Both the position numbers and the translations under genes were made by a program. Source: Acutalibacteraceae bacterium (lineage in GTDB: Bacteria; Bacillota; Clostridia; Oscillospirales; Acutalibacteraceae). From it: 47,124 nt of DNA. Positions 31,533 to 45,712 of the stretch are shown piece after piece (the stretch's first letter is position 1; each line of letters opens with the position of its first letter). The notes beneath the pieces were generated by a model that saw only the letters and a list, made by a program, of their open reading frames with translations, was not told the DNA's origin and searched no databases. The stretch spans positions 1-47,124 of the forward strand of contig JAZPXM010000152.1 in assembly GCA_045543675.1 (NCBI GenBank), given 5' to 3'.

Positions 31533-31568
31533 GTGCTCTCCCCTTTTTCAAGGGGAGAGCACAGTTTT
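31533..31568 (+). terminator. Strong hairpin / probable terminator in non-coding DNA
   Basis: gtgctctcccct / aggggagagcac 12-bp stem with loop ttttca, followed by agtttt. Confidence 0.55.
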
Positions 31569-32024: not shown

Positions 32025-32050
32025 CCATTTACCCAAAAGGTGTCTGCGGT

Positions 32051-32332: not shown

Positions 32333-32341
32333 CGTATTCTC

Positions 32342-34369
32342 CTAATCTTTTTTCTTCGAAAATTGTGACAAGTCCTGCCACCGCTGCAGGTCAGGATGTA
32401 CAAGCGCACGGTCGGCGCGCCGTTCTCCGTAGCAATACCCGTTCACACGCATATACGCATTCCACCGCATATGCTCGGTCTTTTTACGGCGACACGCTTC
32501 ACAGTAACATATTGTTTTGTCGGTACCGGTACACGGTCCTACCGTGCCAAACGTGCTTTCCAACATCTCTTTATGCACCGCTTTGGCTACCGACGACTGT
32601 CGGTAATACTCGAAGTTCAAGAAAGACGTAATGCCGTTTATCACATTTTGTCTGCCTTCCACACCGTCCGCCTGTATCCAGCGAATGTGGTCGTCAAGCG
32701 CCTGCGCTTCGCGTTTTTGTTCGTTCTCTATCACAGTATACGCAAAATGAGACGATAAATTACCGATAAACTGCACGTGGTACGGTGTACCTTTGTAATT
32801 AACAAGGAACGAATCTTCCTTTTCCCGCGGCTCTACGTTAAGATTTTCCGCCTTTTTATCGTCGTACACCACCGCGTAAATACGGGGTGCATCTGCCGCA
32901 CCTGTTTTCTGCATCACTTCGCAAGCGGCATTATCCACCCCTTGCAAACGGTCAAACAGTTTCCGCAACATAATAGAAACGCGGATATTTTTATCGTCGT
33001 CGCCAAGTGCCACAAACGCCATTGTGGTACGGCGCAGGCGTGCCGCGGATGCGGGATTTTCAAACAAGCGATCAAACGCCGCCGTAAAACAATCCACGTT
33101 CTTATAAAAACGCAGGTCGTAGGTTGCTTCGCCGTCTATGCGGCAAGGATTTTTTGACAGAATTTCGGGACATTCCTGCCGCAATACTTCTTCGATATCC
33201 CGCCGTCCCGTTTTGTCTATGCCGCTGTCCACCACGTTGATTTCCAGCCGATAGCCGTCCATCTGGCAAAACCACAGCGCCGTTTTTAAAATCTGCTTGC
33301 CGTATTCGCCCATACCCACAATGAGCAGTGAAATCACCTTATCATTACACAACTCAAAAACGTGGGATTTACAAAACGTATCCAACACAAGCGAATATAC
33401 GCTGTCCATACGCAAAATGCGGAAACCGCCGTCAAAAGAGAGTCCGCTTGCCTTTGCCCCGTTTTGCAAAAATGCCTGCACATCAAATGCGGGGTCTAAC
33501 AATTTTTCGCGGGTGGCAGGCGGTATCAGCAGGTCGCCTTTTTGTATGGCATCAATAACGTGCGCACCGCCGTCGCTGTTTGCGTATACGTACACGGTGG
33601 TGTTGGCGCGCTTTTTATGCGCGGCGGTCAAGCGAATGGCCTGTTCCAGATTTTCCGACTCATCGTCCCCTATCACAAACAACGCCGCTTTGCGGTTTTT
33701 AGCAAGGCGCAGATGGGTAATATCCTGCTTTAAACAGATACCCCCGACATCGCTTTCCTGTGCTTCACACATTAACGCAAACCCGTCTTCACCGTTTTCC
33801 AAAAACACGTCGGTAAATACGATGGTGGCTTTTTTGCCTTTGGCTTGTCGGATACTGCGTGCTAACGCCACCGACTGCGGATTGAGTTTGGATAACACGT
33901 AAAGCGGCTTTTTGCCGGAAACCGCGTACTGTATACGCGCCGTTACGCTACGGAAAAAAGATAATACGGCAACCGCTGTCAAAACGGGTGCTAACAGCAG
34001 GGTCAGCACCGCCGCGGCGGTATACACCTGCTGTAGCCAATCGGTTGTAACGTTGCTAAGCCCGCTACGTATCATTTCCACGTCGCCGTCCAGCGCAAAC
34101 ACACGCGCCGCTTCCACAAAAGACCAGACAACCGTCGTGAAACGACGGTGGCACAGATTATCTACGTCGTTGACGGTATGTATGATCGGCAGATATTGCA
34201 CCGCAACCGCCACATACGCGCCTGCCGTAAAAACCTGCCACGCGGTAAACAGCCGTTTCGCGCGGGAGACGCGGCGGTGATATACCGCCGCAATCACCAC
34301 CGCTATCGCTATCAACGCCAAAGAAGCCACGCCGAAAACTGCCGCGCGGGCATCTATGGAAGAAAACAT
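32342..34369 (-). CDS. Membrane protein with cytoplasmic Rossmann (TrkA-N/RCK-like) region and C-terminal RyR-like domain, 675 aa
   Basis: N-terminal hydrophobic helices span about aa 9-30, 43-60 and 115-138. A dinucleotide-binding-type loop LLIVGMGEYGKQ is at aa 348-359. The C-terminus EHMRWNAYMRVNGYCYGERRADRALVHPDLQRWQDLSQFSKKKD resembles a RyR domain. No K+ filter (GYG) was seen. Confidence 0.65.
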   Translation of the reverse strand: MFSSIDARAAVFGVASLALIAIAVVIAAVYHRRVSRAKRLFTAWQVFTAGAYVAVAVQYLPIIHTVNDVDNLCHRRFTTVVWSFVEAARVFALDGDVEMIRSGLSNVTTDWLQQVYTAAAVLTLLLAPVLTAVAVLSFFRSVTARIQYAVSGKKPLYVLSKLNPQSVALARSIRQAKGKKATIVFTDVFLENGEDGFALMCEAQESDVGGICLKQDITHLRLAKNRKAALFVIGDDESENLEQAIRLTAAHKKRANTTVYVYANSDGGAHVIDAIQKGDLLIPPATREKLLDPAFDVQAFLQNGAKASGLSFDGGFRILRMDSVYSLVLDTFCKSHVFELCNDKVISLLIVGMGEYGKQILKTALWFCQMDGYRLEINVVDSGIDKTGRRDIEEVLRQECPEILSKNPCRIDGEATYDLRFYKNVDCFTAAFDRLFENPASAARLRRTTMAFVALGDDDKNIRVSIMLRKLFDRLQGVDNAACEVMQKTGAADAPRIYAVVYDDKKAENLNVEPREKEDSFLVNYKGTPYHVQFIGNLSSHFAYTVIENEQKREAQALDDHIRWIQADGVEGRQNVINGITSFLNFEYYRQSSVAKAVHKEMLESTFGTVGPCTGTDKTICYCEACRRKKTEHMRWNAYMRVNGYCYGERRADRALVHPDLQRWQDLSQFSKKKD

Positions 34370-34391: not shown

Positions 34392-37300
34392 TTAGTCTTT
34401 GAGCACCGCTTCGATTTCGTCGCCCGTCATATGGTTTTTCACCATTAACGTGCCGACAAGCGCATCAATTTTATGCTTATTTTCCGCAATCAGCGCAACC
34501 GCTTTTTGCATCTGCTCTTCTAAGATACGATTCACCGCGGCGTGCACTTGTTCCGCCATACCACCGTTGGGGTCAATCACAGCCAACCCGAAGTCTTTGT
34601 CCATACCGTAACTGCACAAAATCGCCTGCGCCGTACGGGTGGCACTCACAAGGTCGCTCGCAGCGCCCGTGGAAAGCCCGTCTTGTTCCCCGTAATATAC
34701 CAATTCTGCCGCGCGACCGCCCAAAGACGTGCGAATTCTCGCAAGCAGGTCCTCTTTGGAGGATAACGGTTTTTTCTCGGTATCGCCGTGTTGCATATAC
34801 CCACCGTGGTCGCCGCGTGCCACAACGGTGAGATAGGACGGGGTTTCACCGTAGTGCCAATACAGAAAAGCGTGACCCGCCTCATGCCGTGCAACGCGTT
34901 CTAAGGTGGAAATATCCCATTCTTTGCGTTCGCCGCCGTTAAAGGTTTCAAACGCTTCGTCAAAAATCTCGTCGGTAACCTTGCCGTCGCCGTCGCGGAT
35001 CGCCATACGCAAGGACAGTTCCAAAATAGATTCTAACAGTGCCAAACTCATACCCGTAGAACGAATGGCGATGCTGTCGTATTTCGCATCGGTCAATCGG
35101 TATGCAGGGTTGGCCGCCGTACGTTCTTTCAAATACCGCGTGCGTTCGTCGCGGTTGGGCAAATCCACAAAGATACGGCGGTCAAAACGACGCATCAATG
35201 CGGCATCCAAACTCTTTTTGCTGCCCGGTTCCACGTCGAAATTGGTTGCCGCCAACACGAACACGGGTTTGGTCGTATCCTTACGGAAACCGTCCATTTC
35301 GGTAAGCAAGGCGGTCAAGGTCGCTTCTACTTCGCGGGAACCGCCGCTCTCGCCGCCGGTACGTTCCTGCGCGATAGCATCAATTTCGTCGATAAACAGG
35401 ATACTGGGGGCATATTTACGCGCCGTACGGAACAAATCCCGTATCGCGTCGCCGCCCTGTCCGATATACTGTTTGCGGAACTGACTGCCCACCGCAGAGA
35501 TAAAGGTCACGTCCGATTCGCTTGCCATCGCTTTGGCGAGCATAGTTTTACCCGTACCGGGCGGGCCGTACAAAATAACACCTTTCGGGGGTTGTGCACC
35601 CGCAAATTTTTTGGGGTCTTTTAAGTATTTGATGAAATATTGTAATTCTTTTTTTGCGTCTTCAGCGCCTATTACTTCGCTGAACTTCACGTTGGGTTTG
35701 GTGATGTTGCTCAGCACGTTTTTCGCGTCTTCGGCATCCATTGCAACGGTCAAACGGAAGTCAAACAAATGGATACACGCCACGCCTGCCGCCGTGTCTA
35801 CCGTCTGCGACGTGCTAAAGCCCGCCACCTTATTGGCTTTTGCCAATTTGAGCATACTGTTTTGCCGATGGATGCTTTCGCAAATATCCGCAATGCGTGC
35901 AGAGAATGCTTGTGCGCCGTCACAGAAATTCACTTCACCGCGCACGCCCATCCGCGCAAACGAAACTTTTTCTTCCGCCGTATATTCCCTTGCCCCGCGT
36001 GCCATATACACGGGGGTGGTGTTATAGCGGTTATACAGATGTTGTAAAAACGTACGTCCGTCGGATTCTACGTCTTCAATGTTCAGATACCCGTCGGCAT
36101 TTTCTTTTACGCCGCACAGAATATCCACCACCGCAAACGCAATATCCTTTTCACGCAACGCATCGGCGGCTTTAGCCAAATCGTTCGTCACAATAAAATT
36201 GCAGGTATCGTTTTCGGTGCAATACGTCGCGAAAGCATCGTCTGCAAAAATGAGTGCCGTCGGCTTCTCCGCAGGCAGGAACAAATGCCGTACCTGCGCA
36301 TTATCCGCAGGCAATTTCACGCCGATCTTTACGGTTTTCACCGCGCTGACGTTGTCAGCACTCATCAAGCGATACAACTCGTGGATCTCCGCGTTAAAGA
36401 ACGCTTCCGCTCTGCCGCGTACGGTACGTGCATCCGCCGCGCCGCCTTCTGCAAACAGCAACGCCGCGTAAACGGCATCGTCAATGTCAATGGTGATATT
36501 GAATTTCTTTTCAAAGTTATCTGCGTGGCGGCGCATTTCACGCTTGGCAATGCCGACAAGGTTCTGCGCGGTGATGTGGTTAAACATCACCACGTTGCCC
36601 GACGCGAAACGGGAACAGATCGCCGCAGGGAAATACGGCTCGCCGGTTCGCTGGTCAATATCGTTTTGCAACGCACGCAAGATCACCTTTTTGGACAGAC
36701 CCGAAAAATCGGTGATGTCGCTGTCTTCATACAACTGCCGACCTGCGTTGGTGGTGAAGATCAAAATGGCGTCTTTAAAATCAATTTCTTCGTCCGTTTT
36801 GGCATCGCGCAAACGACCGGCATCCAACAACTGCAAAAACAGCGTGATGATGTTATAATGTGCCTTTTCAATTTCGTCAAACAGCAACACACAACGGGGA
36901 TTTTTCTTCACAAAACCCGTGACGTTACCCGCTTTCGCGTTGCGGTATACGTCGTCCGAGCCGACAAATTCCACCGTCGCTTCATGACCCGAATATTCGC
37001 TCATATCAAACCGCTGGAACGGTCTGCCCAGCAGTTGTGCCACCTGCTCCGCCAAAAACGTCTTACCCACGCCGGGAGGGCCTGCGAACAAGAAGGTGGC
37101 AGGACGGGTGCGTTTGTCGTCGGTCATACGCAACATCTCCGACTGGAAAAAGCCGCTGACAAAGGTGCCCACCGCGTTATCCTGACCGAATACCACTTTA
37201 GACAGGCTTGCTTGTATCTCTTTCGCCTGTGCGGTCAACGCCGCAATATCGTCGGCGGTTTCGGTGCTGCCTGCAGACGCCGTCTGTGCGGCAGGTGCCG

Positions 37301-37814
37301 CCGCTTGTGCCGGCTGTGCAGGCGCATTTTGTTGGGTCAGATTGCGGAACGACGCCATAATATCATCAGGAAGCACGCCGCTGTCTGCCAATTTAGTCGT
37401 AACGGGAATGACACCGTCTTTTATGCACACTTTGAGCAACCCGTCCATCACCGCATTCGGGCGGAGAATAATATCTTCCAATACCGCGGCAACGGTCAGT
37501 TCTTTTGCTTGTTTTTCCGCGCGGTCTTTGGCTTCCAGCAGTATTTTCTGCATAAACAAGCCGTCAAAATACGCCGCGGGCGCTGTACTGTTTATGTGGG
37601 ACATCATCACCTTTTTCAGTTTGCCCGTATCCAACTGTGCCATAGCGATAACGGCGGATATTTCCTGCAAATTTGCACCTTCCACCGTATATACGTGGTC
37701 TAAAAGGTCGACCACCGCCACCAAAAAGCGATGCGCCGTTAACGGCTTATTTTCGCCGCCAACGGTTTTGGCATACGCCAAAACCTGCTCTAATATCGTC
37801 TGTTTTGTACTCAT
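34392..37814 (-). CDS. Chimeric soluble AAA+ protease: Clp_N-like N-domain, ClpA/B D2-type AAA+, receiver-like insert, FtsH-type AAA+, M41 zinc peptidase (1140 aa)
   Basis: The Clp D2-type block is VFGQDNAV...FLFAGPPGVGKTFLAE...FDMSEY...LLFDEIEKAH...LLQLLDAGRLRD...ILIFTTNAG. The FtsH-type block is GVILYGPPGTGKTMLAKA...ILFIDEIDAI...ATNFD...LMRRFDRRIFVDLP. The M41 motifs are HEAGHAF (aa 977-983) and GAASDLVSATRTAQ. No TM helix is present. Confidence 0.85.
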   Translation of the reverse strand: MSTKQTILEQVLAYAKTVGGENKPLTAHRFLVAVVDLLDHVYTVEGANLQEISAVIAMAQLDTGKLKKVMMSHINSTAPAAYFDGLFMQKILLEAKDRAEKQAKELTVAAVLEDIILRPNAVMDGLLKVCIKDGVIPVTTKLADSGVLPDDIMASFRNLTQQNAPAQPAQAAAPAAQTASAGSTETADDIAALTAQAKEIQASLSKVVFGQDNAVGTFVSGFFQSEMLRMTDDKRTRPATFLFAGPPGVGKTFLAEQVAQLLGRPFQRFDMSEYSGHEATVEFVGSDDVYRNAKAGNVTGFVKKNPRCVLLFDEIEKAHYNIITLFLQLLDAGRLRDAKTDEEIDFKDAILIFTTNAGRQLYEDSDITDFSGLSKKVILRALQNDIDQRTGEPYFPAAICSRFASGNVVMFNHITAQNLVGIAKREMRRHADNFEKKFNITIDIDDAVYAALLFAEGGAADARTVRGRAEAFFNAEIHELYRLMSADNVSAVKTVKIGVKLPADNAQVRHLFLPAEKPTALIFADDAFATYCTENDTCNFIVTNDLAKAADALREKDIAFAVVDILCGVKENADGYLNIEDVESDGRTFLQHLYNRYNTTPVYMARGAREYTAEEKVSFARMGVRGEVNFCDGAQAFSARIADICESIHRQNSMLKLAKANKVAGFSTSQTVDTAAGVACIHLFDFRLTVAMDAEDAKNVLSNITKPNVKFSEVIGAEDAKKELQYFIKYLKDPKKFAGAQPPKGVILYGPPGTGKTMLAKAMASESDVTFISAVGSQFRKQYIGQGGDAIRDLFRTARKYAPSILFIDEIDAIAQERTGGESGGSREVEATLTALLTEMDGFRKDTTKPVFVLAATNFDVEPGSKKSLDAALMRRFDRRIFVDLPNRDERTRYLKERTAANPAYRLTDAKYDSIAIRSTGMSLALLESILELSLRMAIRDGDGKVTDEIFDEAFETFNGGERKEWDISTLERVARHEAGHAFLYWHYGETPSYLTVVARGDHGGYMQHGDTEKKPLSSKEDLLARIRTSLGGRAAELVYYGEQDGLSTGAASDLVSATRTAQAILCSYGMDKDFGLAVIDPNGGMAEQVHAAVNRILEEQMQKAVALIAENKHKIDALVGTLMVKNHMTGDEIEAVLKD

Positions 37815-37825: not shown

Positions 37826-38302
37826 CTATCTTTTGCCGATGCTTTCTAAGAAATCATGCAGAGAAAGTGTGCCTTTTGCCAATGCATCCACACGGTCGTT
37901 ATACATATCCACCGCTGTACACGTGTAGGATATCATATACTGCAAAAGTCCGTCCCCGATTGTGCTTTCCACGAAAGATGCCGATTGACGGAACCAGCAA
38001 ATCCCCTCACGGATATCAAAATCAAACGAACCGTCCGCCAGCGGATAGGTCATGGCGCAAGCGGCTATGGCGCCTTCTAATCGTCTGTCTTCGGGGAACA
38101 CGCTGAGCAACGGTGACAACACGCGTACCACCTGCCGCTGTGCGTCCACCACAATGATAAACTTCATCAACAAATCTTCGCCGGTCACGCCGAAATGCAT
38201 GGTCAACTTTTCTTCGTCTTTTTCGTAGTTCCAGTTGCGGGCGTCTATCGCGGCACACAAACCCGCAAACACTTCACGTGCCTTGTTTATGTTTTCACTC
38301 AT
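37826..38302 (-). CDS. YbjN-family (type III secretion chaperone-like fold) protein, paralogue 2
   Basis: About 158 aa and acidic, with the pattern ...NW.YE.DEE...M.FGV.GED..M.F.I.VD..RQ.V...SPL....ED.R... typical of YbjN/DUF2596-like proteins. It is clearly paralogous to the upstream gene. Confidence 0.6.
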   Translation of the reverse strand: MSENINKAREVFAGLCAAIDARNWNYEKDEEKLTMHFGVTGEDLLMKFIIVVDAQRQVVRVLSPLLSVFPEDRRLEGAIAACAMTYPLADGSFDFDIREGICWFRQSASFVESTIGDGLLQYMISYTCTAVDMYNDRVDALAKGTLSLHDFLESIGKR

Positions 38303-38314: not shown

Positions 38315-38797
38315 TTATCGTGCAAACCAATCTTCTACAAAGCGCTGTACATCCAGTTCGCCGGTAGAAATGGCCTTAAATTTATCGTTGAATTTATCGG
38401 TCAACCCGCAAGAAACGGATATCATCGTATCCAACGCGCGTACGCTGATATCGCTTTCCAGATAACTCTGGGTGATGCGAAAGCCCAATGTTCCCGATGC
38501 AATGTCGTAATCGAAATTGCCTTCCGCCAACAAACTGTTGACGGCACAAACGGCGATTGCCAAATCTAACCGTTTATCTTCCGCGACCCGAAAGTTCAGC
38601 GGAGAAATCAGCATCACGATTTTTCGTTCCGCATTTACCGAAATGTGCATCTCCATCGGTATGTCTTCGCCGTTGACACCAAACGTGATATCTAACGACT
38701 CGTCATCCCTTTGATAGTGCCATTGGCGTGCGTCCAACGCACTGCATATTTTTTCGTATATGTTTTTCGCGTTTTGCGCCGTAGTTGCATCAAACAT
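38315..38797 (-). CDS. YbjN-family protein, paralogue 1
   Basis: It aligns along its whole length with the 37826-38302 product (ICSALDARQWHYQRDDESLDITFGVNGEDIPMEMHISVNAERKIVMLISPL versus LCAAIDARNWNYEKDEEKLTMHFGVTGEDLLMKFIIVVDAQRQVVRVLSPL). Confidence 0.6.
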   Translation of the reverse strand: MFDATTAQNAKNIYEKICSALDARQWHYQRDDESLDITFGVNGEDIPMEMHISVNAERKIVMLISPLNFRVAEDKRLDLAIAVCAVNSLLAEGNFDYDIASGTLGFRITQSYLESDISVRALDTMISVSCGLTDKFNDKFKAISTGELDVQRFVEDWFAR

Positions 38798-38800: not shown

Positions 38801-40045
38801 TTATCCCCCTAATTTCCGCAACATTTCCGTGAAGCGTTGCTCACACAGATCGTCGTTCTTTATTTTGATTACCGTAATACCCATTTCGGCGGCGCGATTG
38901 ACAATCGCTTCGCCGCTTTCCCGCATTTCATCCAAGCGGGTGGCAACCAGCACTTTTTTAGCGTACTGTCCGCCAAACCGTTCGGCAACGGTAGACAGTT
39001 TATACAGTTCGTCCGATTTAAAGTTGCGGCCGTTTTTGCAGGAAATGAAAATCGGGGTCAGGTCTTTCATCAACATAACGTCCATTTCATTGTTCACTTC
39101 CTGCTTGTCCGCTTCCAGTTTGCCGTCCCAGTCGATGGTGACCCCCGTCATCACGTCGTCAAACAGCGGCTTGCCGTCTTGGTCGGTAAGGTTTCTCGCC
39201 GTTTGGGTCACAAACAACTCCAGCACCCTGCCCGCATTGGTAAGACACCGCTTTACCTGCTCGTTTTTGTAGGTAAAGGCAATGCCTGCGGTAGAAAAGG
39301 TCAGGTTTTGTATCAAATCATACGTTTCCAGTTCTTTGAAGAAACTGCCCGAGAAAAACGCGGGGTACCCTCTTTGTAACAGTACGTCTTTGACCTGCTC
39401 GGGTTCAATAAACACCGACAATGCTGTTTTATCCTGCACACAGCAGGTGTGAAAGCCGTCTAACGCGTGCACCGCATCGTTCCATTGTGCGTAATTCTTC
39501 TTGCAGATGCGCCACATACGGTCAAGGTCGGCACAAAATGCCTGATTAAAATCCCAACGGTAGGTGGTGTTTTCTTTTTCTGCTTCAAAGATCACCCGTC
39601 CGCCATACGCTTTCACGTTTTCTTCAATGGTCAAAGATGCCTGTTTTACGGCGAGTATCTGCCCGTCCGCATCGCAGTCATATAACCTGCCGTTGCGGAT
39701 ATTAAAGCGATGCAGTTGTACTTTATCACGGTGGGCACAAAACACAGCGCCTACTGCCACCAGATACAAATCTTCGCCACCGGTCAGATCAAATGTACAT
39801 TCACCGTATTTGGCAATGATCGTTTCCAGCTTTTTGATAATATCTTGCAGATCGTTGCGGTTTACCGATTCATACGAAAAGGTCACCTGCAGTTGATGCG
39901 CCGCCGCGATCTCTTCGTACCGTACTTTGGCTTTTGCCATACGTTTGTGGTTATCACCCACCAGCACCACCCGTTCGGGTGCACACAGCAAGGCGCTGAC
40001 GATATTTTCCACCGCATTGGTGTCAAAAAATTCTACAACCGTCAT
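38801..40045 (-). CDS. Card1/Can2-like protein: N-terminal CARF-type Rossmann domain plus C-terminal DUF1887/PD-(D/E)xK nuclease-fold domain
   Basis: The N-terminus ENIVSALLCAPERVVLVG...FDLTGGEDLYLVAVG resembles the CARF core of Card1 (..NITGGTK..). The C-terminus NEMDVMLMKDLTPIFISCKNG...ELYKL resembles the DUF1887 nuclease core. This rests on my recollection of the family pattern, not on a search. Confidence 0.65.
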   Translation of the reverse strand: MTVVEFFDTNAVENIVSALLCAPERVVLVGDNHKRMAKAKVRYEEIAAAHQLQVTFSYESVNRNDLQDIIKKLETIIAKYGECTFDLTGGEDLYLVAVGAVFCAHRDKVQLHRFNIRNGRLYDCDADGQILAVKQASLTIEENVKAYGGRVIFEAEKENTTYRWDFNQAFCADLDRMWRICKKNYAQWNDAVHALDGFHTCCVQDKTALSVFIEPEQVKDVLLQRGYPAFFSGSFFKELETYDLIQNLTFSTAGIAFTYKNEQVKRCLTNAGRVLELFVTQTARNLTDQDGKPLFDDVMTGVTIDWDGKLEADKQEVNNEMDVMLMKDLTPIFISCKNGRNFKSDELYKLSTVAERFGGQYAKKVLVATRLDEMRESGEAIVNRAAEMGITVIKIKNDDLCEQRFTEMLRKLGG

Positions 40046-40056: not shown

Positions 40057-40338
40057 TTATTGCAGTTTTATAAATGCGTTTAAGTCGTCGGTATAAATTT
40101 CCAAAACCTGTAACAAACGGTCGGTGGCTTCGTTTTTGGTAAACAACAATACAAGCGACAAAAAGGTGTTCCAGGTCATATCCCGTTTGCCGGTTTCAAT
40201 GGCAATCACCGTACCGCGCGACACGCCTATTTTATCTGCCAATTCTTCCTGCGTCAGCCCCAATGCCGTACGCAAGGTCGGCAAATTAGCGGTCATATTG
40301 CGAATCAATTTCGCACGATCCATTTCTTTTTCGGTCAT
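40057..40338 (-). CDS. XRE-family HTH protein inside the operon
   Basis: LRTALGLTQEELADKIGVSRGTVIAIETGKRDMTWNTFLSLV. The ATG at 40338 lies 8 nt after GGAG, and an alternative GTG at 40347 overlaps the clpP stop. Confidence 0.75.
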   Translation of the reverse strand: MTEKEMDRAKLIRNMTANLPTLRTALGLTQEELADKIGVSRGTVIAIETGKRDMTWNTFLSLVLLFTKNEATDRLLQVLEIYTDDLNAFIKLQ

Positions 40339-40343
40339 TGTAC

Positions 40344-40922
40344 TCACTCCGTAATCACATGGTCAATAATGCCGTAGCGCAATGCTTCGTCCGCAAACAT
40401 CCAGTTGTTGCGGTCGGTATCCCGCTCGATTTCTGCGGGAGTATGCCCCGTATTCGCGGCGAGAATGGTATTAAACCGCTCTTTCAGGCGCTGTAAATGG
40501 CGGGATTCCACCACAATATCGGTCGCCTGTCCCGCAGCGGCACTCATCACTTGATGAATCATGATCTGGCTGTTTTCCTGCGCATACCGTTTGCCTTTGG
40601 TGCCTGCCGCCAGCAAAAACGCGCCCATACTCGCCGCCTGTCCCACACAAATGGTGGAAACGTCACATTTGAGTTTTTTGACGGTATCATAAATACCCAA
40701 CCCCGCCGATACACTGCCGCCGGGAGAGTTGATGTACAGCGAAATATCCTTGTGCGGGTCCAACGACTCCAGATACAGCAGTTGTGCAATCACCGAACAC
40801 GCCAAGTCGTCGTTCACTTCGTTAAATAACAGTACGATACGGTCTTTTAACAGACGGGAAAACAGGTCGTACCCATGCTCCACACCGCCGTCTCTTTCGT
40901 AAAAATTCGGATTCAGTATCAT
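40344..40922 (-). CDS. clpP: ATP-dependent Clp protease proteolytic subunit paralogue
   Basis: Full-length ClpP-like sequence: YDLFSRLLKDRIVLL, LYINSPGGSV, VSTICVGQAASMGAFLLAAG (Ser), IMIHQ (His), ERDTDRNNWM (Asp). Confidence 0.9.
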   Translation of the reverse strand: MILNPNFYERDGGVEHGYDLFSRLLKDRIVLLFNEVNDDLACSVIAQLLYLESLDPHKDISLYINSPGGSVSAGLGIYDTVKKLKCDVSTICVGQAASMGAFLLAAGTKGKRYAQENSQIMIHQVMSAAAGQATDIVVESRHLQRLKERFNTILAANTGHTPAEIERDTDRNNWMFADEALRYGIIDHVITE

Positions 40923-42547
40923 TTTTTACCGTCCTTTCTTCCGTACAAATTTTCATACGTCTGCGCCGCTTTTTCCTGCAGTTTGGTGTCTTGCGCTGTT
41001 GTTTTCTTCTTAGGTGCAGACTTCTTTTTCGGTTTTTGGGGTTTTGCTTGCGGTAACGTTATTTCCATTTCGTGCGTTGCCGTAAACGGGAACGGTTTTT
41101 TACCCGCCAAAATGTCGTTTAACAGCGTATCCACCGAGAACTGCGCCACCTGCGGCATACGGAATGCCCTCTGCTTGGGTGCTGTATACCCTTTAAACGC
41201 TTCGTACATATCGATATCCGCCATTTCGGTGATAATGGGATACTGCCGCGCGTGCATGATCAGCGTCTCGCCCTTTTGCTTGTCAAACCGCTGTAATTCC
41301 GACACCGAAATCATCGCCCGACGGCGTCCGTCAGCGGTATATATCTCCCCGCACAAGGCGCTGATCTCCTGCAACAACGACAATTCCTTAGACGTTAAAA
41401 ATACCCAGTTATCGCAGTTACCTTTAATGGTGTCGGCATCTTCGCCGTACTTACCTTTCAGTTGGTGCATACTCTGTGCCACCAGGAAATACCGCATATT
41501 ACGGCTTCTCGCCGCCGAGATCATCGCCGGCATATCCGGCACTTTGGGGATATTACAAAACTCGTCCAACACGAAGTTGACACGCACAGGCAAGCGGAAA
41601 TTCTTTTCTTTTTGCGCTTCGGAGATCAACACTTCATACGCCTGCTTAATAAAGGTGGTAACAAGAAAATGGTAGGTGGTTTTTTCGTCGGGCACAATAA
41701 TGTACACCGCCGTTTTCTCTCTGCCGAACCGCCGCATATCCACTGTGTTACCGCTTAACATTTTGGTAAGATTGGGCTGGGTGTTGAAGATGCGCACCAT
41801 ACCGTACAGCACCGCAAAAATACTGCGGCGGGTATTTTCCGCACCTGCCAACACACCTTTGTAATTCATTCCCGCAATGGTCTCGTCACTCATTCTTTCG
41901 GCAAGTTTTGTGAGCACCTTCTCACTCGCCGTAGAACACAAGCCGGACAGCGAGCCGACGTTCATTTCTTTCGCCGTGCCGCATTCCGCCATCAACAGCA
42001 GATTGGCAAGTGCATACGCGCTTGCCATTTCCGGCCAGAACACGTCTTTGGTGTTCGCCTTTTGCGGTTCGGCGATGGTGTTGACAAAATCGTTGAGCAT
42101 CGAGATACCTTGCTCTTTGTTTTCCGAATGGTACATTTCATACGGCAAAGCAAGCGGATTCCACATATCACCGTGACCGATGTCACGGAAGTTGAGTACG
42201 ACGGTTTTATACCCTTTGGTTTTTACAAAACCCGCGGTTTTTGCGTACAGTTCCCCTTTCGGGTCGGTGACCACAAACGATTCACCCGCACCTGCAAACA
42301 ACCCGATAAACGGCATACAGAACAAACGGGTCTTCTTGGACCCCGTCGCGCCGAAAATCAGCGTGTGGGTATCCGCACCGTCCACGTACGCCTCTTTGCC
42401 GTCGGACAGCAACGGCAAACCTGCCACGGGATAGGTGTCGGCAAAAAGGTCTACGTAGGTGCCCGCCCGTTTCATCTCTTCTACGGTCGACCAACGCGTT
42501 TCTTGGTTGCCGACCATATATCTGTCATATCGATGGGTGCTTCCCAT
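40919..42547 (-). CDS. Soluble VirD4/TraG-like (type IV coupling protein family) P-loop ATPase, no N-terminal TM anchor
   Basis: HTLIFGATGSKKTRLFCMP (Walker A, aa 66-73), FVVTDPKGELY, VNFVLDEFCNIPKVPDMPAMISAARSRNMRYFLVAQSMHQL and NCDNWVFL blocks are typical of T4CP/TraG-D_C. The N-terminus is hydrophilic. Confidence 0.75.
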   Translation of the reverse strand: MGSTHRYDRYMVGNQETRWSTVEEMKRAGTYVDLFADTYPVAGLPLLSDGKEAYVDGADTHTLIFGATGSKKTRLFCMPFIGLFAGAGESFVVTDPKGELYAKTAGFVKTKGYKTVVLNFRDIGHGDMWNPLALPYEMYHSENKEQGISMLNDFVNTIAEPQKANTKDVFWPEMASAYALANLLLMAECGTAKEMNVGSLSGLCSTASEKVLTKLAERMSDETIAGMNYKGVLAGAENTRRSIFAVLYGMVRIFNTQPNLTKMLSGNTVDMRRFGREKTAVYIIVPDEKTTYHFLVTTFIKQAYEVLISEAQKEKNFRLPVRVNFVLDEFCNIPKVPDMPAMISAARSRNMRYFLVAQSMHQLKGKYGEDADTIKGNCDNWVFLTSKELSLLQEISALCGEIYTADGRRRAMISVSELQRFDKQKGETLIMHARQYPIITEMADIDMYEAFKGYTAPKQRAFRMPQVAQFSVDTLLNDILAGKKPFPFTATHEMEITLPQAKPQKPKKKSAPKKKTTAQDTKLQEKAAQTYENLYGRKDGKK

Positions 42548-43416
42548 TACACAGCACCACCTTTCACAAGCCCTATGGTGTTCACTTTTTCCAAATTGGC
42601 AACGGTGCGTTCCACGTACGCGCTGTCGGGTGCAAACGCCGCTAACGTATCTGCGTGTAATTCACGGGTTGCCAACTTGCCGCTCGAAAATACCGTGTAC
42701 GCAATTTCCTGACACAGCAACCCCAGCGATTTATACCCGTCAAAATATTTGTTTTTGCGCATCTTATCCACCGTTTTGCCAAGCAATTCCCGTCCGTCTG
42801 TCGCAAGGGTCAAGCCGTAAGCGGCAAGATTTTTTTCGATATAATCGGTCAGGTCCTGCGTGTTGGGCAGTTTCAGTTCCACCCGCTCTATACGCAAAAA
42901 CATAGACAAAAACGCTTCTAAATTATGTAACTTCTGTTTGTCCGCACAACTGACAGACAGAATAATAAACCACGTATCTTTATGCGCGGCAAGGTATTCC
43001 ATAAAATGCGCGAAATACCGCTCTTCGTAGTGGTCTACCCATTCGTCCACGTCGATACGGATAATCCCTTTAAACTCGCTGCGGAAACCCGCCGCATTTT
43101 TTACCGCTTCCATCAACCGTTGCAATTCGCTGAACGGCGCGGCAGGCGGCGTATACCCCAGCACAAACTCGAAGAATTTCACGTCCCCGTAAAACTCCAT
43201 CAAATTACCCTTAGATTCCAGATATTCCGCAATCAGTTCCAGAAAGAACGTTTTGCCGACACCTGATTTTGCCACCCACAACATATCGGGCAACAAAATG
43301 GGCGCATGCACGGGTTGATCCCGCATATTTTCGGACAGCGTTTCCCATTTTCTGATCAACGGGCGTAACTGTTCCGCTTCTTTTTGTCGCATCACCTTAT
43401 CAAAACACGTTTCCAT
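42547..43416 (-). CDS. P-loop/AAA-like ATPase of unknown function
   Basis: Walker A is WVAKSGVGKTFF, and a possible Walker B is IIRIDVDEW. The ATG at 43416 (METCFDKV) follows AGGGGG. The stop overlaps the VirD4-like start (TAATG). Confidence 0.5.
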   Translation of the reverse strand: METCFDKVMRQKEAEQLRPLIRKWETLSENMRDQPVHAPILLPDMLWVAKSGVGKTFFLELIAEYLESKGNLMEFYGDVKFFEFVLGYTPPAAPFSELQRLMEAVKNAAGFRSEFKGIIRIDVDEWVDHYEERYFAHFMEYLAAHKDTWFIILSVSCADKQKLHNLEAFLSMFLRIERVELKLPNTQDLTDYIEKNLAAYGLTLATDGRELLGKTVDKMRKNKYFDGYKSLGLLCQEIAYTVFSSGKLATRELHADTLAAFAPDSAYVERTVANLEKVNTIGLVKGGAV

Positions 43417-43470: not shown

Positions 43471-43517
43471 CATTTTATTCTGTTTTGAAAGAAAATGTTC
43501 TTTTTTTATATAAAGTC

Positions 43518-43546
43518 TTTCAAAACCGCCTGCGCTGTGCTATAAT
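43518..43546 (+). promoter_or_regulatory. Candidate divergent promoter (extended -10)
   Basis: TGcTATAAT at 43538-43546 with a weak -35 (tttcaa) 17 nt upstream. Confidence 0.4.
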
Positions 43547-43574
43547 AAAGCGGTATAAAAAGGGGGTAACCGCT

Positions 43575-44819
43575 ATGATAAGCCCGTATATTTTGCGGTA
43601 CGCGACTACCGAAGCTACAGCAGAGCGTATCCGGTATTTTTTAAGAGACTGTTTTCATATTTGTCAGCGCGAACTGCCCGAAGAACAACGCAGTGTGTTA
43701 ATGGCGTGTGACTTGATATGGGATTTTGAAAATAACACGTGTTTCCCGCTGTTTATTCGCCGCGGGTACGGGTTTTGTGACCTTGTCACCGACCCGCTCG
43801 CCCCCGCGCAGAAAAACCTGTTTGAAAACGCAAATTTTCTCACGGATGTGGAAGACCGTCGATATCTTTTGCGGTTAGAGCGGCCCCTCAATCCCCTGAT
43901 GCGTGAAAAAGAAGAAACGCTGAGCAAAAGCGTGTTGCGGTCTTTGCGCGGTTGGTATCAACAGCACGATTTGACGCAAAGCGCCGCCTGTGCGGCAATA
44001 CAAATCGAACAATGCGGCTTTTTCGGGGTTGTCGACCCGCGCGGGAACGTATTGGTCCCGCCGCTGTATAAAAGCATCGTTCCCTTTTCCGTACGGTTGC
44101 AGGAAATTGCTTTGTTTGTGTGTTATCGCGGCGACAAGTTTACCAACACGGTGGACGTATACGATATCAACGGCAACAAGATATACGAAAACATCGGCGG
44201 ATTATATTTACATACCGAAGAAGTAAAATACGCTTTTTCCGGTGAAGACGGCAACGCGCCCGGCGCACGGGTTGCGGAAACATTGCGGGTGGTACAGTAC
44301 ACACAACCGCCGCTTTCAGACAAAGCGCCGCCGTATAAAGAGTATATTCGAAAGGTCAGCAACTTACGCCTTTTGCCCGTTGCAGAGAAGGACGACGGTC
44401 CCCGACGGCTGGCGCGGTTTTCCGACGCTTTGTCGTATGGTCGCAACATCGAAACCATAGATCTGCGGGATATTCACGACGTGTTGTACCCGCTCGCCGA
44501 AAAAATGGGCGCTTACCACGGGGAAACCGCCGCAGAAATTATGCTCAGCATTCCCCATTGGAACTTTTTCCGCAAGGGACATACCCGTATGGACGCGGTC
44601 GTTCCCGACCTGCCGCTTCATTTGTTATTGGATATGCCCGAAAATATACGCACGTTTTTTGAAAATATCGGCTTAAAAACCGTTACTGACGTTGCCAATA
44701 CCGACTTAACAGACTTTTGCAACGGTGACCGATCTTTGGAATTCGCGGTGTTTTTATTTCAGGCGCAGATACAATACACCTTGGCACATCCCGCAGAAGA
44801 TGATGAACAGGAGACATAA
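43575..44819 (+). CDS. Hypothetical protein with WG-repeat-like segments
   Basis: The ATG at 43575 follows AAGGGGG. GFFGVVDPRGNVLVPPLYKSIVPF and VDVYDINGNKIYENI resemble WG/KWG beta-repeats. The C-terminus NIRTFFENIGLKTVTDVANTDLTDF is HhH-like. Confidence 0.4.
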   Translation: MISPYILRYATTEATAERIRYFLRDCFHICQRELPEEQRSVLMACDLIWDFENNTCFPLFIRRGYGFCDLVTDPLAPAQKNLFENANFLTDVEDRRYLLRLERPLNPLMREKEETLSKSVLRSLRGWYQQHDLTQSAACAAIQIEQCGFFGVVDPRGNVLVPPLYKSIVPFSVRLQEIALFVCYRGDKFTNTVDVYDINGNKIYENIGGLYLHTEEVKYAFSGEDGNAPGARVAETLRVVQYTQPPLSDKAPPYKEYIRKVSNLRLLPVAEKDDGPRRLARFSDALSYGRNIETIDLRDIHDVLYPLAEKMGAYHGETAAEIMLSIPHWNFFRKGHTRMDAVVPDLPLHLLLDMPENIRTFFENIGLKTVTDVANTDLTDFCNGDRSLEFAVFLFQAQIQYTLAHPAEDDEQET

Positions 44820-44821
44820 AT

Positions 44822-45712
44822 ATGCAATACATATCCGTGCAAATTTCCTTGGTGGCGTTATTACCCACTCTGCTGTTATGCTGGTACATCTATGAAAAAG
44901 ACCGCGTGGAAAAAGAACCTAAAGGATTACTCTCCTTGCTGTTTTTGGTGGGCGGCATCGGCTTTATCCCCGCGTATTTCGCTGAACGCGGCATAGCAGG
45001 GCTGATAGACGGGTGGTTTGCGTCCCGCCTATCCTTTTCCGCAGAAGGCGCGTTGCTGTTCGATAACGCAGGTGTCGCTTTCGCACACACCGCACTTTTC
45101 GCTTTTTGCGGCGTGGCGCTGGTAGAAAACAGTATAAAGTGGCTTCTTTTGGTACTCATTACCCGTAAAAGTCGCCACTTTAACTGCTTGTTTGACGGGC
45201 TGATCTACGCGTCCTTTGTGTCGCTGGGGTTTGCGGCGTTTGAAAGCGTTGCGTACGCATGGCAAAACGGGTGGGACACTTTATGGTTGCGCCTTGCCAC
45301 CGCCATTCCCTGCCACCTGCTTATTGGCGTGTTGATGGGATACGGTTACACCTTGTGGCACACGTTTGACAGCGCACAAAAAGCCGAACGCCGTCTCGTA
45401 CAGGACGGAACGGTGTCCGCCGCCAACATCCGCGGCGCAGGCGGATTTTTGACCGCCGGTTTTGTCGTGCCGTTGCTTACCCAAGGACTATATGTAACCG
45501 TAGGGTCTTTCTACTCCACCCTTGTCAGTACCCTGTTTTATGTAGCGGTAGGCATCTTGTTTGTATTGTGTTTCGTAGGTATCCATTTGTTGTCGGATAA
45601 GGATAACCCCACCGAGAAAACATCGCTTATCCTGCTTTTGCGCAAGCATCCCGATACGGATATTACCCTGCTCCGTGAAGCGATAAACGCGGAGGTGTCG
45701 TATGGAAAATAA
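44822..45712 (+). CDS. PrsW-family intramembrane protease
   Basis: Polytopic, with YIYEKDRVEKEP, VENSIKW, SLGFAAFES and PCHLLIG motifs characteristic of PrsW. There is a 2-nt gap from the upstream gene. Confidence 0.75.
   Translation: MQYISVQISLVALLPTLLLCWYIYEKDRVEKEPKGLLSLLFLVGGIGFIPAYFAERGIAGLIDGWFASRLSFSAEGALLFDNAGVAFAHTALFAFCGVALVENSIKWLLLVLITRKSRHFNCLFDGLIYASFVSLGFAAFESVAYAWQNGWDTLWLRLATAIPCHLLIGVLMGYGYTLWHTFDSAQKAERRLVQDGTVSAANIRGAGGFLTAGFVVPLLTQGLYVTVGSFYSTLVSTLFYVAVGILFVLCFVGIHLLSDKDNPTEKTSLILLLRKHPDTDITLLREAINAEVSYGK

What the first reader, a model, noticed from the sequence alone, without database searches (positions are those of the whole stretch)
38801..40045. Orphan Card1/Can2-like CARF-nuclease with no CRISPR-Cas or cyclase partner, and a Ser at the presumed (D/E)xK acidic position
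The N-terminal half has the CARF-like layout of Card1-family proteins: a short strand + ENIVSALL helix, VVLVG, and a FDLTGGEDLYLVAVG loop corresponding to the ligand-loop region. The C-terminal half has the DUF1887-type nuclease core NEMDV...IFISCKNG. Card1/Can2 enzymes are established cA4-activated effectors of type III CRISPR systems. Here I find no cas gene, repeat array, Palm-domain cyclase or CD-NTase anywhere in 47 kb. Either the ligand comes from elsewhere in the genome or the domain senses a different nucleotide. In my alignment by eye, the residue expected to be the acidic member of the ExK motif is Ser (I-S-C-K). That could mean a variant active site (Cfr10I-like S-x-K arrangements exist) or a nuclease-dead sensor that regulates the neighbouring proteases and ATPases.
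Basis: partly seen in the sequence, partly recalled or inferred. Interest (0 to 1): 0.68.

Follow-up and report, generated by a model that had tools for sequence, protein, structure and literature searches.

The report
Can2-like nuclease with acidic sensor pocket
The gene is a real relative of the CRISPR helper nucleases Can2/Card1. Its "odd" serine is a known variant of that family's active site, but its sensor pocket has turned acidic and cannot plausibly bind the usual signal, and a few close relatives sit in CRISPR loci that use a different signal (SAM-AMP).

Summary
The 414-aa ORF at 38801-40045(-) is real. By profile (PADLOC CARF4--CARF_PDDEXK, E 1e-34; Pfam PF09002) and by fold (AF2 pLDDT 93; Foldseek VC1899, Can2, Cdn1, Card1) it is a full-length Can2/Card1-type protein.

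Ser335 does occupy the Glu position of ExK (SthCan2 E291, Card1 E308). However, the published Can2 motif is already E-ExD-(E/S)CK, and the active TbrCan2 has Ser at that position. E276, E320, D322, K337 and K349 are invariant here, so a dead nuclease is unlikely.

The more telling change is in the CARF domain. The universal NxTGGTK motif is DLTGGED, and the cA4-contacting Ser, Thr and Lys of Can2 are Asp8, Asp31 and Asp92. The pocket is acidic, as in the orphan VC1899, which does not respond to cA4.

The clade is large: at least 532 species genomes, mostly gut Acutalibacteraceae/Oscillospiraceae, and mostly without cas genes nearby. Recurrent neighbours are a ClpB/FtsH-type fusion protease, an RCK-RyR membrane protein and YbjN pairs. 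In four type III-B loci the gene directly follows CorA, in the slot normally held by a SAM-AMP-degrading enzyme.

No cas gene, cyclase or CRISPR array lies in the window. I class this as a new variant of a known kind. The ligand and the role remain to be tested.

The parts
38801..40045 (-). Can2/Card1-like protein, 414 aa. Approximate domains: CARF aa 1-150 (nt 39596-40045), helical insertion aa 151-261 (nt 39263-39595), PD-(D/E)xK domain aa 262-414 (nt 38801-39262).
   Evidence: ORF. Pfam PF09002, 40.4 bits against a cut-off of 26.4. PADLOC CARF4--CARF_PDDEXK full length, E 1.3e-34. AF2 pLDDT 93.2. Foldseek 1xmx E 1e-22, 7bdv, 9u49, 6xl1.
39770..39790 (-). CARF beta4-alpha4 ligand loop, D86-L-T-G-G-E91-D92. 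It replaces the NxTGGTK motif of Can2.
   Evidence: Aligned to SthCan2 N-V-T-G-G-T-K99. D-x-[TS]-G-G-[DE]-[DE] across the clade. Codon coordinates.
39035..39088 (-). Nuclease core: E320-x-D322 (nt 39080-39088) and S335-C-K337 (nt 39035-39043). E276 (nt 39218-39220) and E346/K349 (nt 38999-39010) lie outside this span.
   Evidence: Invariant in 46, 84 and 263 homologues. Mapped onto SthCan2 E276/D278/E291/K293.
40057..40347 (-). XRE-type HTH protein, 96 aa. Its stop is 12 nt upstream of the nuclease gene and it overlaps clpP by 4 nt.
   Evidence: Pfam HTH_3, E 4.6e-10. The same position is kept in L003, L006 and L015.
40344..40922 (-). ClpP-family protease subunit, 192 aa.
   Evidence: Pfam CLP_protease, E 2.7e-72.
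40919..42547 (-). VirD4/TraG-type (T4CP-like) P-loop ATPase, 542 aa, with no predicted N-terminal membrane anchor.
   Evidence: Pfam T4SS-DNA_transf E 1.7e-40 and TraG-D_C. Hydropathy scan.
42547..43416 (-). AAA+ ATPase of unknown family. The likely start is M20 of the longest ORF, giving 289 aa.
   Evidence: No Pfam hit. Walker A motif GVGKT is seen in the sequence. Called as 289 aa in a near-identical contig. 63% identical to the first gene of the L170 operon.
38315..38797 (-). YbjN-like (type III secretion chaperone-like) protein 1, 160 aa.
   Evidence: Pfam YbjN, E 1.2e-3, below the curated cut-off. The L008 homologue scores 2.4e-4. 42% identical to its paralogue.
37826..38302 (-). YbjN-like protein 2, 158 aa.
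   Evidence: Paralogue of the gene above. The pair recurs in 15 of 86 loci.
34392..37814 (-). Soluble fusion protease of 1140 aa: a ClpB-D2-like AAA module, an unexplained middle region (about aa 490-700), then an FtsH-type AAA module and an M41 peptidase.
   Evidence: Pfam AAA_2, AAA and Peptidase_M41. Both Walker motif sets and HEAGH are invariant in 17 homologues. Present in 25 of 86 loci, and in 15 of 39 well-flanked loci.
32342..34369 (-). Membrane protein of 675 aa: N-terminal helical membrane domain, tandem RCK/TrkA-like domains and a C-terminal RyR domain.
   Evidence: Hydropathy scan. PDB profile hits to RyR domains, 6uhi 2.6e-14 and 4n05 1.2e-6. AF2 pLDDT 89.6. Foldseek hits to the TrkA gating ring and Slo channels, E about 2e-4 with TM only 0.3-0.4. 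Present in 23 of 86 loci.

Best explanation
Family and catalytic site (shown by sequence and model). The gene encodes a dimer-type Can2/Card1-fold protein from a distinct, large clade of gut Clostridia. Its nuclease site is the Ser form of the published E-ExD-(E/S)CK motif: E276, E320-x-D322, S335-C-K337, plus the helix Lys K349.

Activity (inferred). It is most likely a working metal-dependent nuclease or phosphodiesterase, not a dead sensor.

CARF pocket. The pocket has lost the cA4 contacts of Can2. S19, T42 and K99 of Can2 correspond to D8, D31 and D92, and NxTGGTK has become DLTGGED. A conserved acidic cluster has appeared: E5, D8, D31, D86, E91, D92 and D123-x-D125-x-D127-G. The substitutions are shown. 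The inference is that the protein is not a cyclic-oligoadenylate receptor and that its pocket binds something cationic. That could be a positively charged adenosine conjugate such as SAM-AMP, or a divalent metal.

Link to SAM-AMP signalling (by gene position only). The window protein's nearest relatives include members that sit directly after CorA in HD-less type III-B loci of the SAM-AMP type, and no NrN/DEDD/lyase was recognised in those loci. This suggests that the clade's ancestral job is to respond to, or to hydrolyse, that kind of signal.

Role in this window (inferred). The gene has no such partner here. It is one gene of a nine-gene, tightly packed operon: AAA+, T4CP-like ATPase, ClpP, XRE, this nuclease, two YbjN-like proteins, a ClpB/FtsH fusion protease and an RCK-RyR membrane protein. 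Part of this operon recurs, in the same order, in a different chromosomal site in another genome. I read it as the nuclease module of a mobile, probably defensive or stress-response, multi-effector island. The trigger is unknown.
For: Fold and family.

Catalytic mapping and invariance.

Ser form is known and active: PMC10783487 gives the E-ExD-(E/S)CK consensus, equates TbrCan2 Ser356 with Card1 E308, and reports TbrCan2 as active. SCK also occurs in DUF1887 proteins that carry N-x-S-G-G-x-K loops.

Pocket: the alignment to SthCan2 is and the contact residues are listed in PMC7969007. In that paper VC1899, which has D9, D34 and R96 at these positions, is orphan and not regulated by cA4.

Type III-B/CorA linkage:
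- L008 carries Cas6, Cmr1, Cas10, Cmr3-5 and CorA by Pfam/PADLOC, with an unscanned 339-aa ORF in the Cmr6 position, followed by the family member and then a CRISPR array.
- L041, L166 and L171 have the same gene order.
- The CorA proteins are only 27% identical between L008 and L041, yet the adjacency is kept.
- All four Cas10 proteins keep GGDD and the Asp that aligns with BfrCas10 D70, the residue reported as important for SAM-AMP synthesis.
- No NrN, DEDD or SAM lyase was found in L008.
- CorA is reported as obligately paired with a SAM-AMP-degrading enzyme (PMC10600005).

Tree: the CorA-linked members are nested among the window protein's nearest relatives.

Operon as a unit: the same order is seen in L003 (46% identity, different flanks), in L006 and, partly, in L170.

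Partner frequencies.

Not phage-borne.
Against: - No biochemical data exist for any S-C-K member. The one tested Ser-form enzyme (TbrCan2) places its Lys differently (SxTTS...K).
- Cas10/CorA linkage was seen in only 3 of 86 scanned loci, plus two loci found by targeted look-up. Most members have no signal generator within 10 kb.
- About a third of well-flanked loci (14 of 39) have none of the recurrent partners, so the operon partners are not obligatory.
- SAM-AMP still carries a phosphate and a carboxylate. CorA's proposed SAM-AMP site uses both Arg and Asp, so a strongly acidic pocket is not an obvious fit.
- The pocket mapping rests on a weak HMM alignment of the CARF domain (domain E about 8) anchored on the TGG loop and on predicted secondary structure. 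No model coordinates were available.
- The defence role of the operon is inferred only from its composition and mobility. PADLOC recognises no known system in it.
Confidence: 0.55

Rival explanations
1. SAM-AMP off-switch. The protein is a phosphodiesterase that hydrolyses SAM-AMP or a related linear conjugate. It would fill the role of NrN, DEDD or SAM-AMP lyase next to CorA. The window copy would serve a Cas10/CorA system encoded elsewhere in the genome, or would be a relic of one.
For: The gene occupies the slot directly after CorA in L008, L041, L166 and L171, and no other degrading enzyme was recognised there. The literature reports that CorA needs such an enzyme. The protein has metal-dependent phosphodiesterase chemistry. 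Its acidic pocket parallels the basic-to-acidic shift described for SAM-binding Cas10.
Against: Most family members have no CorA or Cas10 nearby. Two small unannotated ORFs in L008 cannot be excluded as lyases. A 414-aa two-domain nuclease is an elaborate solution for cutting one bond. Nothing in the window makes SAM-AMP.
Confidence: 0.18
2. Nuclease-dead sensor or adaptor. The Ser substitution kills catalysis, and the protein only senses a ligand and controls the adjacent AAA-M41 protease, ClpP and ATPases.
For: Ser replaces a metal-binding Glu. The gene recurs next to the AAA-M41 protease.
Against: E276, E320, D322, K337, Y348 and K349 are invariant over more than 260 sequences, which is not expected for a dead site. 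The Ser form is part of the family consensus and is active in TbrCan2. Many members have no protease nearby.
Confidence: 0.1
3. [quoted passage not shown]
For: Can2 fold. Some relatives lie in type III-B loci.
Against: The NxTGGTK motif, described as conserved in all Can2 clades, is absent, and the cA4-contacting residues are replaced by Asp. The type III-B loci that carry relatives are the CorA type with the D70-like Cas10 signature, not cOA systems. VC1899, which has a similar pocket, does not respond to cA4.
Confidence: 0.06
4. Metal-sensing nuclease. The acidic CARF cluster and the DxDxDG-like hairpin bind a divalent cation. The nuclease would then be switched on by ion flux through a partner channel: CorA-like, RCK-RyR, or in one case a K+ channel.
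For: The acidic cluster is invariant whatever the genomic context. Channel-like membrane proteins recur next to the gene.
Against: The K+ channel adjacency is not conserved even in the sister species. Many members are solo. There is no structural evidence for a metal site. The idea rests on motif resemblance only.
Confidence: 0.07
5. Housekeeping nucleic-acid-processing enzyme unrelated to defence or signalling. The CARF domain would serve only as a dimerisation scaffold.
For: Within one subclade the gene sits solo at one syntenic site, between a YgjV-like gene and a GHMP-kinase-family gene, across many Acutalibacteraceae. A DUF1887 orphan is near-universal in C. perfringens within a housekeeping context.
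Against: A scaffold role does not explain strong conservation of a charged pocket. Neighbourhoods are mosaic, with TIR, RyR, Cas13d, CorA and Cmr genes. The whole operon relocates between chromosomal sites.
Confidence: 0.04

Closest known systems
Can2/Card1 (CARF4 or Crf4 with a PD-(D/E)xK domain; SthCan2 7BDV, TresuCard1 6WXW/6XL1, Cdn1 9U49)
   Same: Same three-part architecture and fold (Foldseek E 1e-16 to 1e-20, TM 0.6-0.78). Same E-ExD-(E/S)CK catalytic motif and helix Lys.
   Different: The CARF NxTGGTK motif and the cA4 contacts (S19, T42, K99) are replaced by acidic residues. There is no type III locus in the window, and most clade members are not CRISPR-linked.
VC1899 of Vibrio cholerae (PDB 1XMX), the founding orphan DUF1887 protein
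   Same: It is the best structural and sequence match. It is orphan, and its pocket has Asp at the same two positions (D9 and D34, against D8 and D31 here). It is not regulated by cA4 (PMC7969007).
   Different: VC1899 keeps E-C-K and an Arg at the Lys99 position. Here those positions are S-C-K and Asp92. The two proteins share about 19% identity and come from different phyla. The neighbourhoods were not compared.
TbrCan2 (clade 1 Can2, type III-D; PDB 8Q3Y-8Q44)
   Same: It has Ser at the position of Card1 E308, and an ExD pair that carries the metal ligands. It is experimentally active on ssDNA and ssRNA.
   Different: TbrCan2 has SxTTS followed by a displaced Lys369, and it keeps NxTGGTK and cA4 activation. 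Here the Lys is in the canonical S-x-K position and the CARF motif is lost.
NrN, DEDD and SAM-AMP lyase, the accessory enzymes of CorA-type type III-B systems
   Same: Relatives of the window protein occupy the same gene position, immediately after corA, in loci where none of those enzymes was recognised.
   Different: The fold is unrelated. No activity on SAM-AMP has been shown. The window itself has neither CorA nor Cmr genes.
CalpL-CalpT-CalpS and other type III sensor-plus-protease modules
   Same: A nucleotide-sensor-fold protein is encoded next to a large ATP-dependent protease. In some loci a possible sigma/anti-sigma-like pair is also present, but those two proteins have no Pfam hit.
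   Different: The sensor here is fused to a nuclease, not a protease. The protease is a ClpB/FtsH fusion rather than Lon. No functional link has been shown.

Membership tests
Can2/Card1 cOA-activated CRISPR ancillary nucleases | N-terminal CARF Rossmann fold, insertion domain and C-terminal PD-(D/E)xK domain | tested here: met
   PADLOC CARF4--CARF_PDDEXK matches residues 2-410, E 1.3e-34. AF2 model pLDDT 93. Full-length Foldseek hits to 7bdv, 6xl1 and 9u49.
Can2/Card1 cOA-activated CRISPR ancillary nucleases | Nuclease motif E-ExD-(E/S)CK | tested here: met
   E276, E320-x-D322 and S335-C-K337 are invariant. They align with SthCan2 E276/D278/E291/K293. The motif is as stated in PMC10783487.
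Can2/Card1 cOA-activated CRISPR ancillary nucleases | CARF motif NxTGGTK, said to be conserved in all seven Can2 clades and to mediate cOA binding | tested here: not met
   The loop is D-L-T-G-G-E-D here, and D-x-[TS]-G-G-[DE]-[DE] throughout the clade.
Can2/Card1 cOA-activated CRISPR ancillary nucleases | Encoded in or next to a type III CRISPR-Cas locus | tested here: not met
   No cas gene, cyclase or array lies in the 47-kb window. 3 of 86 related loci are CRISPR-linked. The rest of the genome could not be searched.
Can2/Card1 cOA-activated CRISPR ancillary nucleases | cA4 binding and cA4-dependent nuclease activity | not testable with these tools
   This needs purified protein.
DUF1887 / Card1_endonuc superfamily (Pfam PF09002) | Score above the Pfam gathering threshold | tested here: met
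   40.4 bits against a cut-off of 26.4, covering residues 271-394.
VC1899-like orphan DUF1887 proteins | DUF1887 fold with a non-basic (acidic or hydrophobic) pocket that lacks the Can2 cA4 contacts, and no CRISPR link | tested here: met
   1xmx is the best hit. D8 and D31 correspond to VC1899 D9 and D34. No cas genes in the window. It differs at the Lys99 position (Asp against Arg) and at ExK (Ser against Glu).
SAM-AMP-degrading accessory enzymes of CorA type III-B systems (a functional class) | Gene adjacent to corA in a type III-B locus whose Cas10 has the SAM-AMP synthase signature | tested here: inconclusive
   Met for relatives L008, L041, L166 and L171. Not met for the window gene itself.
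SAM-AMP-degrading accessory enzymes of CorA type III-B systems (a functional class) | Hydrolysis or lysis of SAM-AMP | not testable with these tools
   This needs an HPLC assay as in PMC10600005.

The most novel reading that the evidence does not exclude
This clade would be the first CARF-domain family adapted to a non-cOA, positively charged signal: SAM-AMP or a related conjugate. In CorA type III-B loci it would act as the missing signal-degrading enzyme or as a second effector. Its hundreds of orphan descendants in gut Clostridia would have been re-wired into CRISPR-independent islands, with a ClpB/FtsH fusion protease, RCK-RyR channel-like proteins, and TIR and YbjN proteins. Those islands would respond to the same small molecule made by another source, whether host or phage.
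Probability: 0.22. Interest if true: 0.85.

Novelty: new variant of a known kind. Interest (0 to 1): 0.55.

Why it matters
SAM-AMP signalling currently has one known receptor (CorA), and it is unexplained why CorA needs a degrading enzyme. The 2025 CRISPR classification states that the SAM-AMP pathway components are poorly characterised and that exceptions are the place to look.

A Can2-fold protein sits in the degrading-enzyme slot, and its cOA-binding lysine is replaced by acidic residues. That makes it a concrete, cheaply testable candidate for a new receptor or off-switch.

Separately, the clade is very common in uncultured gut Acutalibacteraceae/Oscillospiraceae. It marks a recurrent, undescribed gene set built around a soluble ClpB/FtsH fusion protease. 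This could be a new defence or stress module.

If instead the protein proves to be a plain orphan nuclease, the finding is an ordinary divergent DUF1887 gene.

Tried and rejected
- A metagenome scan with the AAA-M41 alignment, meant to measure the reverse association, was swamped by ordinary FtsH because the patterns were generic. Only L086 was a true relative, and it has no CARF gene nearby. I treat this as uninformative.
- The promoter/terminator scan of the operon gave counts no higher than in shuffled sequence.
- I tried to extend the window through exact-protein look-ups. One returned a 6.4-kb contig from a related MAG and the other returned nothing.
- The Makarova 2020 CARF classification paper is not held, so I could not check whether this clade is listed there.
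- The Kaur et al. 2020 FtsH ternary systems are a different system, built on a MoxR-vWA core.
- There are no matches in GenBank phages or IMG/VR viral contigs, and only one distant plasmid hit. A phage-borne anti-CRISPR reading is therefore rejected.
- A pairing of DUF1887 with a K+ channel in Peptoclostridium acidaminophilum looked suggestive. It is absent in P. litorale and in C. perfringens, so I do not count it as a rule.
- E346 might be a Cfr10I-style relocated acidic residue. It is invariant here and is Thr in the ECK enzymes. Without model coordinates this could not be tested, so it stays an idea.
Full report
**1.
- Coordinates 38801-40045 on the minus strand carry a 414-aa ATG-started ORF.
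- Pfam places a Card1_endonuc (DUF1887) domain at residues 271-394, above the curated threshold.
- PADLOC's CARF4--CARF_PDDEXK profiles match end to end, residues 2-410, E 1.3e-34.
- An AlphaFold2 model built on 46 homologues is confident (pLDDT 93.2, pTM 0.90).
- Its best PDB neighbours are all members of this family: VC1899 (E 1e-22, TM 0.70/0.76), SthCan2, Cdn1, Card1, a Dysgonamonadaceae Can2 and TbrCan2. The CARF-only proteins Cam1, Csa3, Csm6 and Crn1 follow.
The N-terminal half is a CARF fold, not a generic Rossmann domain.

**2. The Ser is real but is not the surprise.**
- HMM alignments to VC1899, SthCan2 and 8BAO all align N-E-M-D-V...I-S-C-K with N-E-L-D-V...I-E-C-K.
- Counting residues in the 7BDV alignment gives E276, D278, E291 and K293, which are the numbers used in the literature. 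So S335 is the equivalent of SthCan2 E291 and Card1 E308.
- S-C-K-N-G is invariant in 263 of 263 database homologues, down to about 34% identity, and in 84 of 84 genomic homologues.
- The TbrCan2 paper gives the family consensus as E-ExD-(E/S)CK. It shows that Ser356 of TbrCan2, the stated equivalent of Card1 E308, takes part in outer-sphere metal coordination. The ExD pair (E341/D343) binds the two Mn2+ ions, and that enzyme is active on ssDNA and ssRNA (PMC10783487).
- In the window protein E276, E320, D322, K337, Y348 and K349 are all invariant.
- Unrelated clostridial DUF1887 proteins also carry SCK. These include ones with an N-x-S-G-G-x-K loop and a near-universal C. perfringens orphan.
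- I therefore consider a catalytically competent site the likelier reading. The caveat is that no S-C-K enzyme has itself been assayed.
- E346 is invariant here and is Thr in VC1899 and SthCan2. It may compensate for the lost Glu. I could not test that without model coordinates.

**3. The informative change is in the CARF domain.**
- The same paper states that all seven Can2 clades keep an NxTGGTK motif that mediates cOA binding.
- Here the loop is D86-L-T-G-G-E91-D92, and across the clade it is D-x-[TS]-G-G-[DE]-[DE].
- The Can2 structure paper lists the cA4 contacts shared by Can1 and Can2 as S19, T42, K99 and Y118. It notes that the orphan VC1899 has D9, D34, R96 and V115 there, and that cA4 does not regulate it (PMC7969007).
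- By the HMM alignment and the predicted beta1-alpha1, beta2-alpha2 and beta4-alpha4 loops, the window protein has D8, D31 and D92 at the first three positions.
- Together with E5, D86, E91 and a hairpin D123-x-D125-x-D127-G, this makes a conserved acidic cluster. H112, R113 and N115 are also conserved.
- The CARF alignment is weak in score and is anchored mainly on the TGG loop. The mapping is therefore an inference, but a consistent one.
- A pocket of this charge is a poor site for a tetra-anionic cA4.

**4. There is no signal generator in the window.**
- Pfam scans of 41 ORFs found housekeeping and sporulation genes: prfA, sua5, coaE, ispF, a spoIIAA/AB/sigF-like operon, ABC transporters and a 2080-aa isopeptide-domain surface protein.
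- They found no cas gene, Palm or mCpol cyclase, CD-NTase or TIR domain. No CRISPR array was found.
- The gene lies in a tightly packed minus-strand run from about 43416 to 32342, in this order:
  - an AAA+ ATPase;
  - a T4CP-like ATPase without a membrane anchor;
  - ClpP;
  - an XRE HTH protein;
  - the nuclease;
  - two YbjN-like proteins;
  - a 1140-aa ClpB-like AAA / FtsH AAA / M41 fusion;
  - a 675-aa membrane protein.
- The membrane protein's family matches RyR domains by profile (6uhi 2.6e-14). Its model resembles TrkA/Slo gating rings, but weakly (E about 2e-4, TM 0.3-0.4).
- RyR domains were recently shown to bind or cleave cADPR-type immune signals (PMC13232231).

**5. The family and its company.**
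- At least 532 GTDB species genomes encode a relative. They are almost all Acutalibacteraceae, Oscillospiraceae or unclassified gut Clostridia MAGs.
- The exhaustive search found 1445 clusters at 50% identity.
- There are no hits in phage or viral-contig collections.
- Counts in 39 loci with at least 6 kb on both sides:

| Neighbour | Loci out of 39 |
|---|---|
| AAA-M41 protease | 15 |
| RCK-RyR membrane protein | 13 |
| stand-alone RyR protein | 9 |
| YbjN pair | 8 |
| TIR-TPR protein | 6 |
| CorA | 2 |
| Cas10 | 1 |
| none of these | 14 |

- The eight-gene core from the AAA+ gene to the AAA-M41 protease recurs in the same order in L003, which is 46% identical and has different chromosomal flanks. 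It recurs again in L006 and partly in L170. So it behaves as a transferable unit.
- The islands are mosaic. A 98%-identical nuclease gene with the same downstream genes follows Cas13d-array-CorA in L029. In L168 it follows AAA-M41 / RCK-RyR / RyR / TIR.

**6. The CRISPR-linked minority.**
- *Locus structure.* A repeat scan found arrays in four of the 85 related loci.
  - In L008, Pfam and PADLOC identify Cas6, Cmr1, a 491-aa HD-less Cas10, Cmr3, Cmr4, Cmr5 and a CorA-like protein (E 6e-77). An unscanned 339-aa ORF sits in the Cmr6 position.
  - The family member follows immediately, then a second Cas6 and the array.
  - L041 and its relative L166, and the more distant L171, have the same order.
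  - The CorA proteins of L008 and L041 share only 27% identity, so the adjacency is conserved across real divergence.
- *Signal type.*
  - All four Cas10 proteins keep GGDD.
  - Their best PDB match is 9lq5_B (E 6e-32, against 1e-10 for other Cmr2 proteins). Its numbering places the GGDD aspartates at 328/329 and an Asp at 70 in G-L-F-P-D-R. These are the positions Chi et al. give for B. fragilis Cas10.
  - In that paper D70 and E151 are the acidic signature of SAM-AMP synthases. That 9lq5_B is the B. fragilis protein is my inference from this numbering.
  - All four Cas10 proteins here have G-L-F-H-D-R.
- *Missing degrading enzyme.*
  - Chi et al. report that CorA is obligately paired with an NrN, DEDD or lyase enzyme that degrades SAM-AMP.
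  - None was found in L008. Two small unannotated ORFs beyond an IS fragment cannot be excluded.
- *Position in the tree.* In a neighbour-joining tree these CorA-linked members are nested among the window protein's closest relatives. Pocket and catalytic residues are the same in every context.

**7. Reading.**
- What is shown:
  - a Can2-fold protein with the Ser form of the family's catalytic motif;
  - a CARF loop that no longer matches the cOA-binding motif;
  - a large, mostly CRISPR-independent clade with recurrent protease and membrane-protein partners;
  - a minority sitting after CorA in SAM-AMP-type loci.
- What is inferred:
  - The nuclease is active.
  - The pocket binds a cationic ligand or a metal rather than cOA.
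  - The CorA-linked members respond to or degrade SAM-AMP.
  - The window operon is a mobile defence or stress module in which this protein is one effector.
- The charge argument mirrors the one Chi et al. made for Cas10. There, the binding site becomes less basic where the methionine moiety of SAM replaces a triphosphate.
- Points against:
  - Most members have no Cas10 nearby.
  - A third have none of the recurrent partners.
  - SAM-AMP is not simply cationic.
- The same pocket in all contexts argues for one common ligand or function, which a CRISPR-specific signal does not easily explain.

**8. Comparison and verdict.**
- Functionally the protein is closest to VC1899, an orphan not regulated by cA4. 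Structurally it belongs with Can2/Card1.
- It passes the Pfam and architecture tests and the nuclease-motif test. It fails the NxTGGTK test and, in this window, the CRISPR-association test.
- I therefore file it in the DUF1887/CARF4 superfamily as a distinct clade, not as a cA4-activated Can2.
The acidic pocket, the CorA-slot relatives and the recurrent protease/channel neighbourhood are the parts that deserve an experiment.

Noticed in passing
window 34392-37814 (-): A soluble 1140-aa fusion of a ClpB-D2-like AAA module and an FtsH-type AAA plus M41 peptidase. Both Walker motif sets and HEAGH are invariant in 17 homologues. An unexplained region of about 200 aa (aa 490-700) separates the two modules. 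This is the commonest neighbour of the nuclease family. A distant homologue (L086) occurs without the nuclease.
   Followed up: partly
window 32342-34369 (-); also 92-96-aa RyR genes in L013, L049, L064, L080, L168: A membrane protein with tandem RCK-like domains and a C-terminal RyR domain. In related loci it is often followed by a stand-alone RyR-domain protein. RyR domains were recently reported to bind or cleave cADPR immune signals.
   Followed up: partly
L029 292-8175 versus L168 1-11233: A 98%-identical nuclease gene with the same downstream genes (210 aa, 296 aa, ClpP-like, T4CP-like, Metallophos) has two alternative upstream modules. One is Cas13d, a CRISPR array and CorA. The other is AAA-M41, RCK-RyR, RyR, TIR and DUF4062. 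This indicates module swapping in a defence island.
   Followed up: partly
L030, L033, L050, L070 (cluster 16) and L168 5096-6187: TIR-domain proteins, some fused to long TPR arrays, lie beside the nuclease gene or between it and the AAA-M41 protease.
   Followed up: no
window 7106-13348 (-): A 2080-aa surface protein with seven FctA/Spy0128 isopeptide domains, a VWA domain and a SpaA domain. It is a pilus- or adhesin-like giant protein.
   Followed up: no
window 43485-46898 (+): A cluster divergent from the operon: a WG-repeat protein, a PrsW intramembrane protease and a transglutaminase-like protein. It is syntenic in L006 and L172. Transglutaminase-like proteins also recur next to family members in L022, L055 and L081.
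   Followed up: no
window 30000-33000: GC content drops to 0.43 over three small ORFs (30901-32143) that have no Pfam match. They lie between an endonuclease-IV-like gene and the end of the operon, and may mark an island boundary.
   Followed up: no
L173 7975-9951 (Peptoclostridium acidaminophilum megaplasmid): A distant orphan DUF1887 protein, also S-C-K and with CARF loop D-L-S-N-G-H-P, lies 40 nt downstream of a voltage-gated-type K+ channel gene. The pairing is not kept in P. litorale.
   Followed up: yes
L174 6001-7140 (Clostridium perfringens chromosome): A 379-aa DUF1887 S-C-K protein with a degenerate CARF loop is present in very many C. perfringens assemblies. It stands alone among housekeeping genes.
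   Followed up: partly
L080 16353-16568: CRISPR-like 30-nt repeats at the contig end, about 5 kb downstream of a family member that is followed by RCK-RyR and RyR genes. No cas genes are in view.
   Followed up: no
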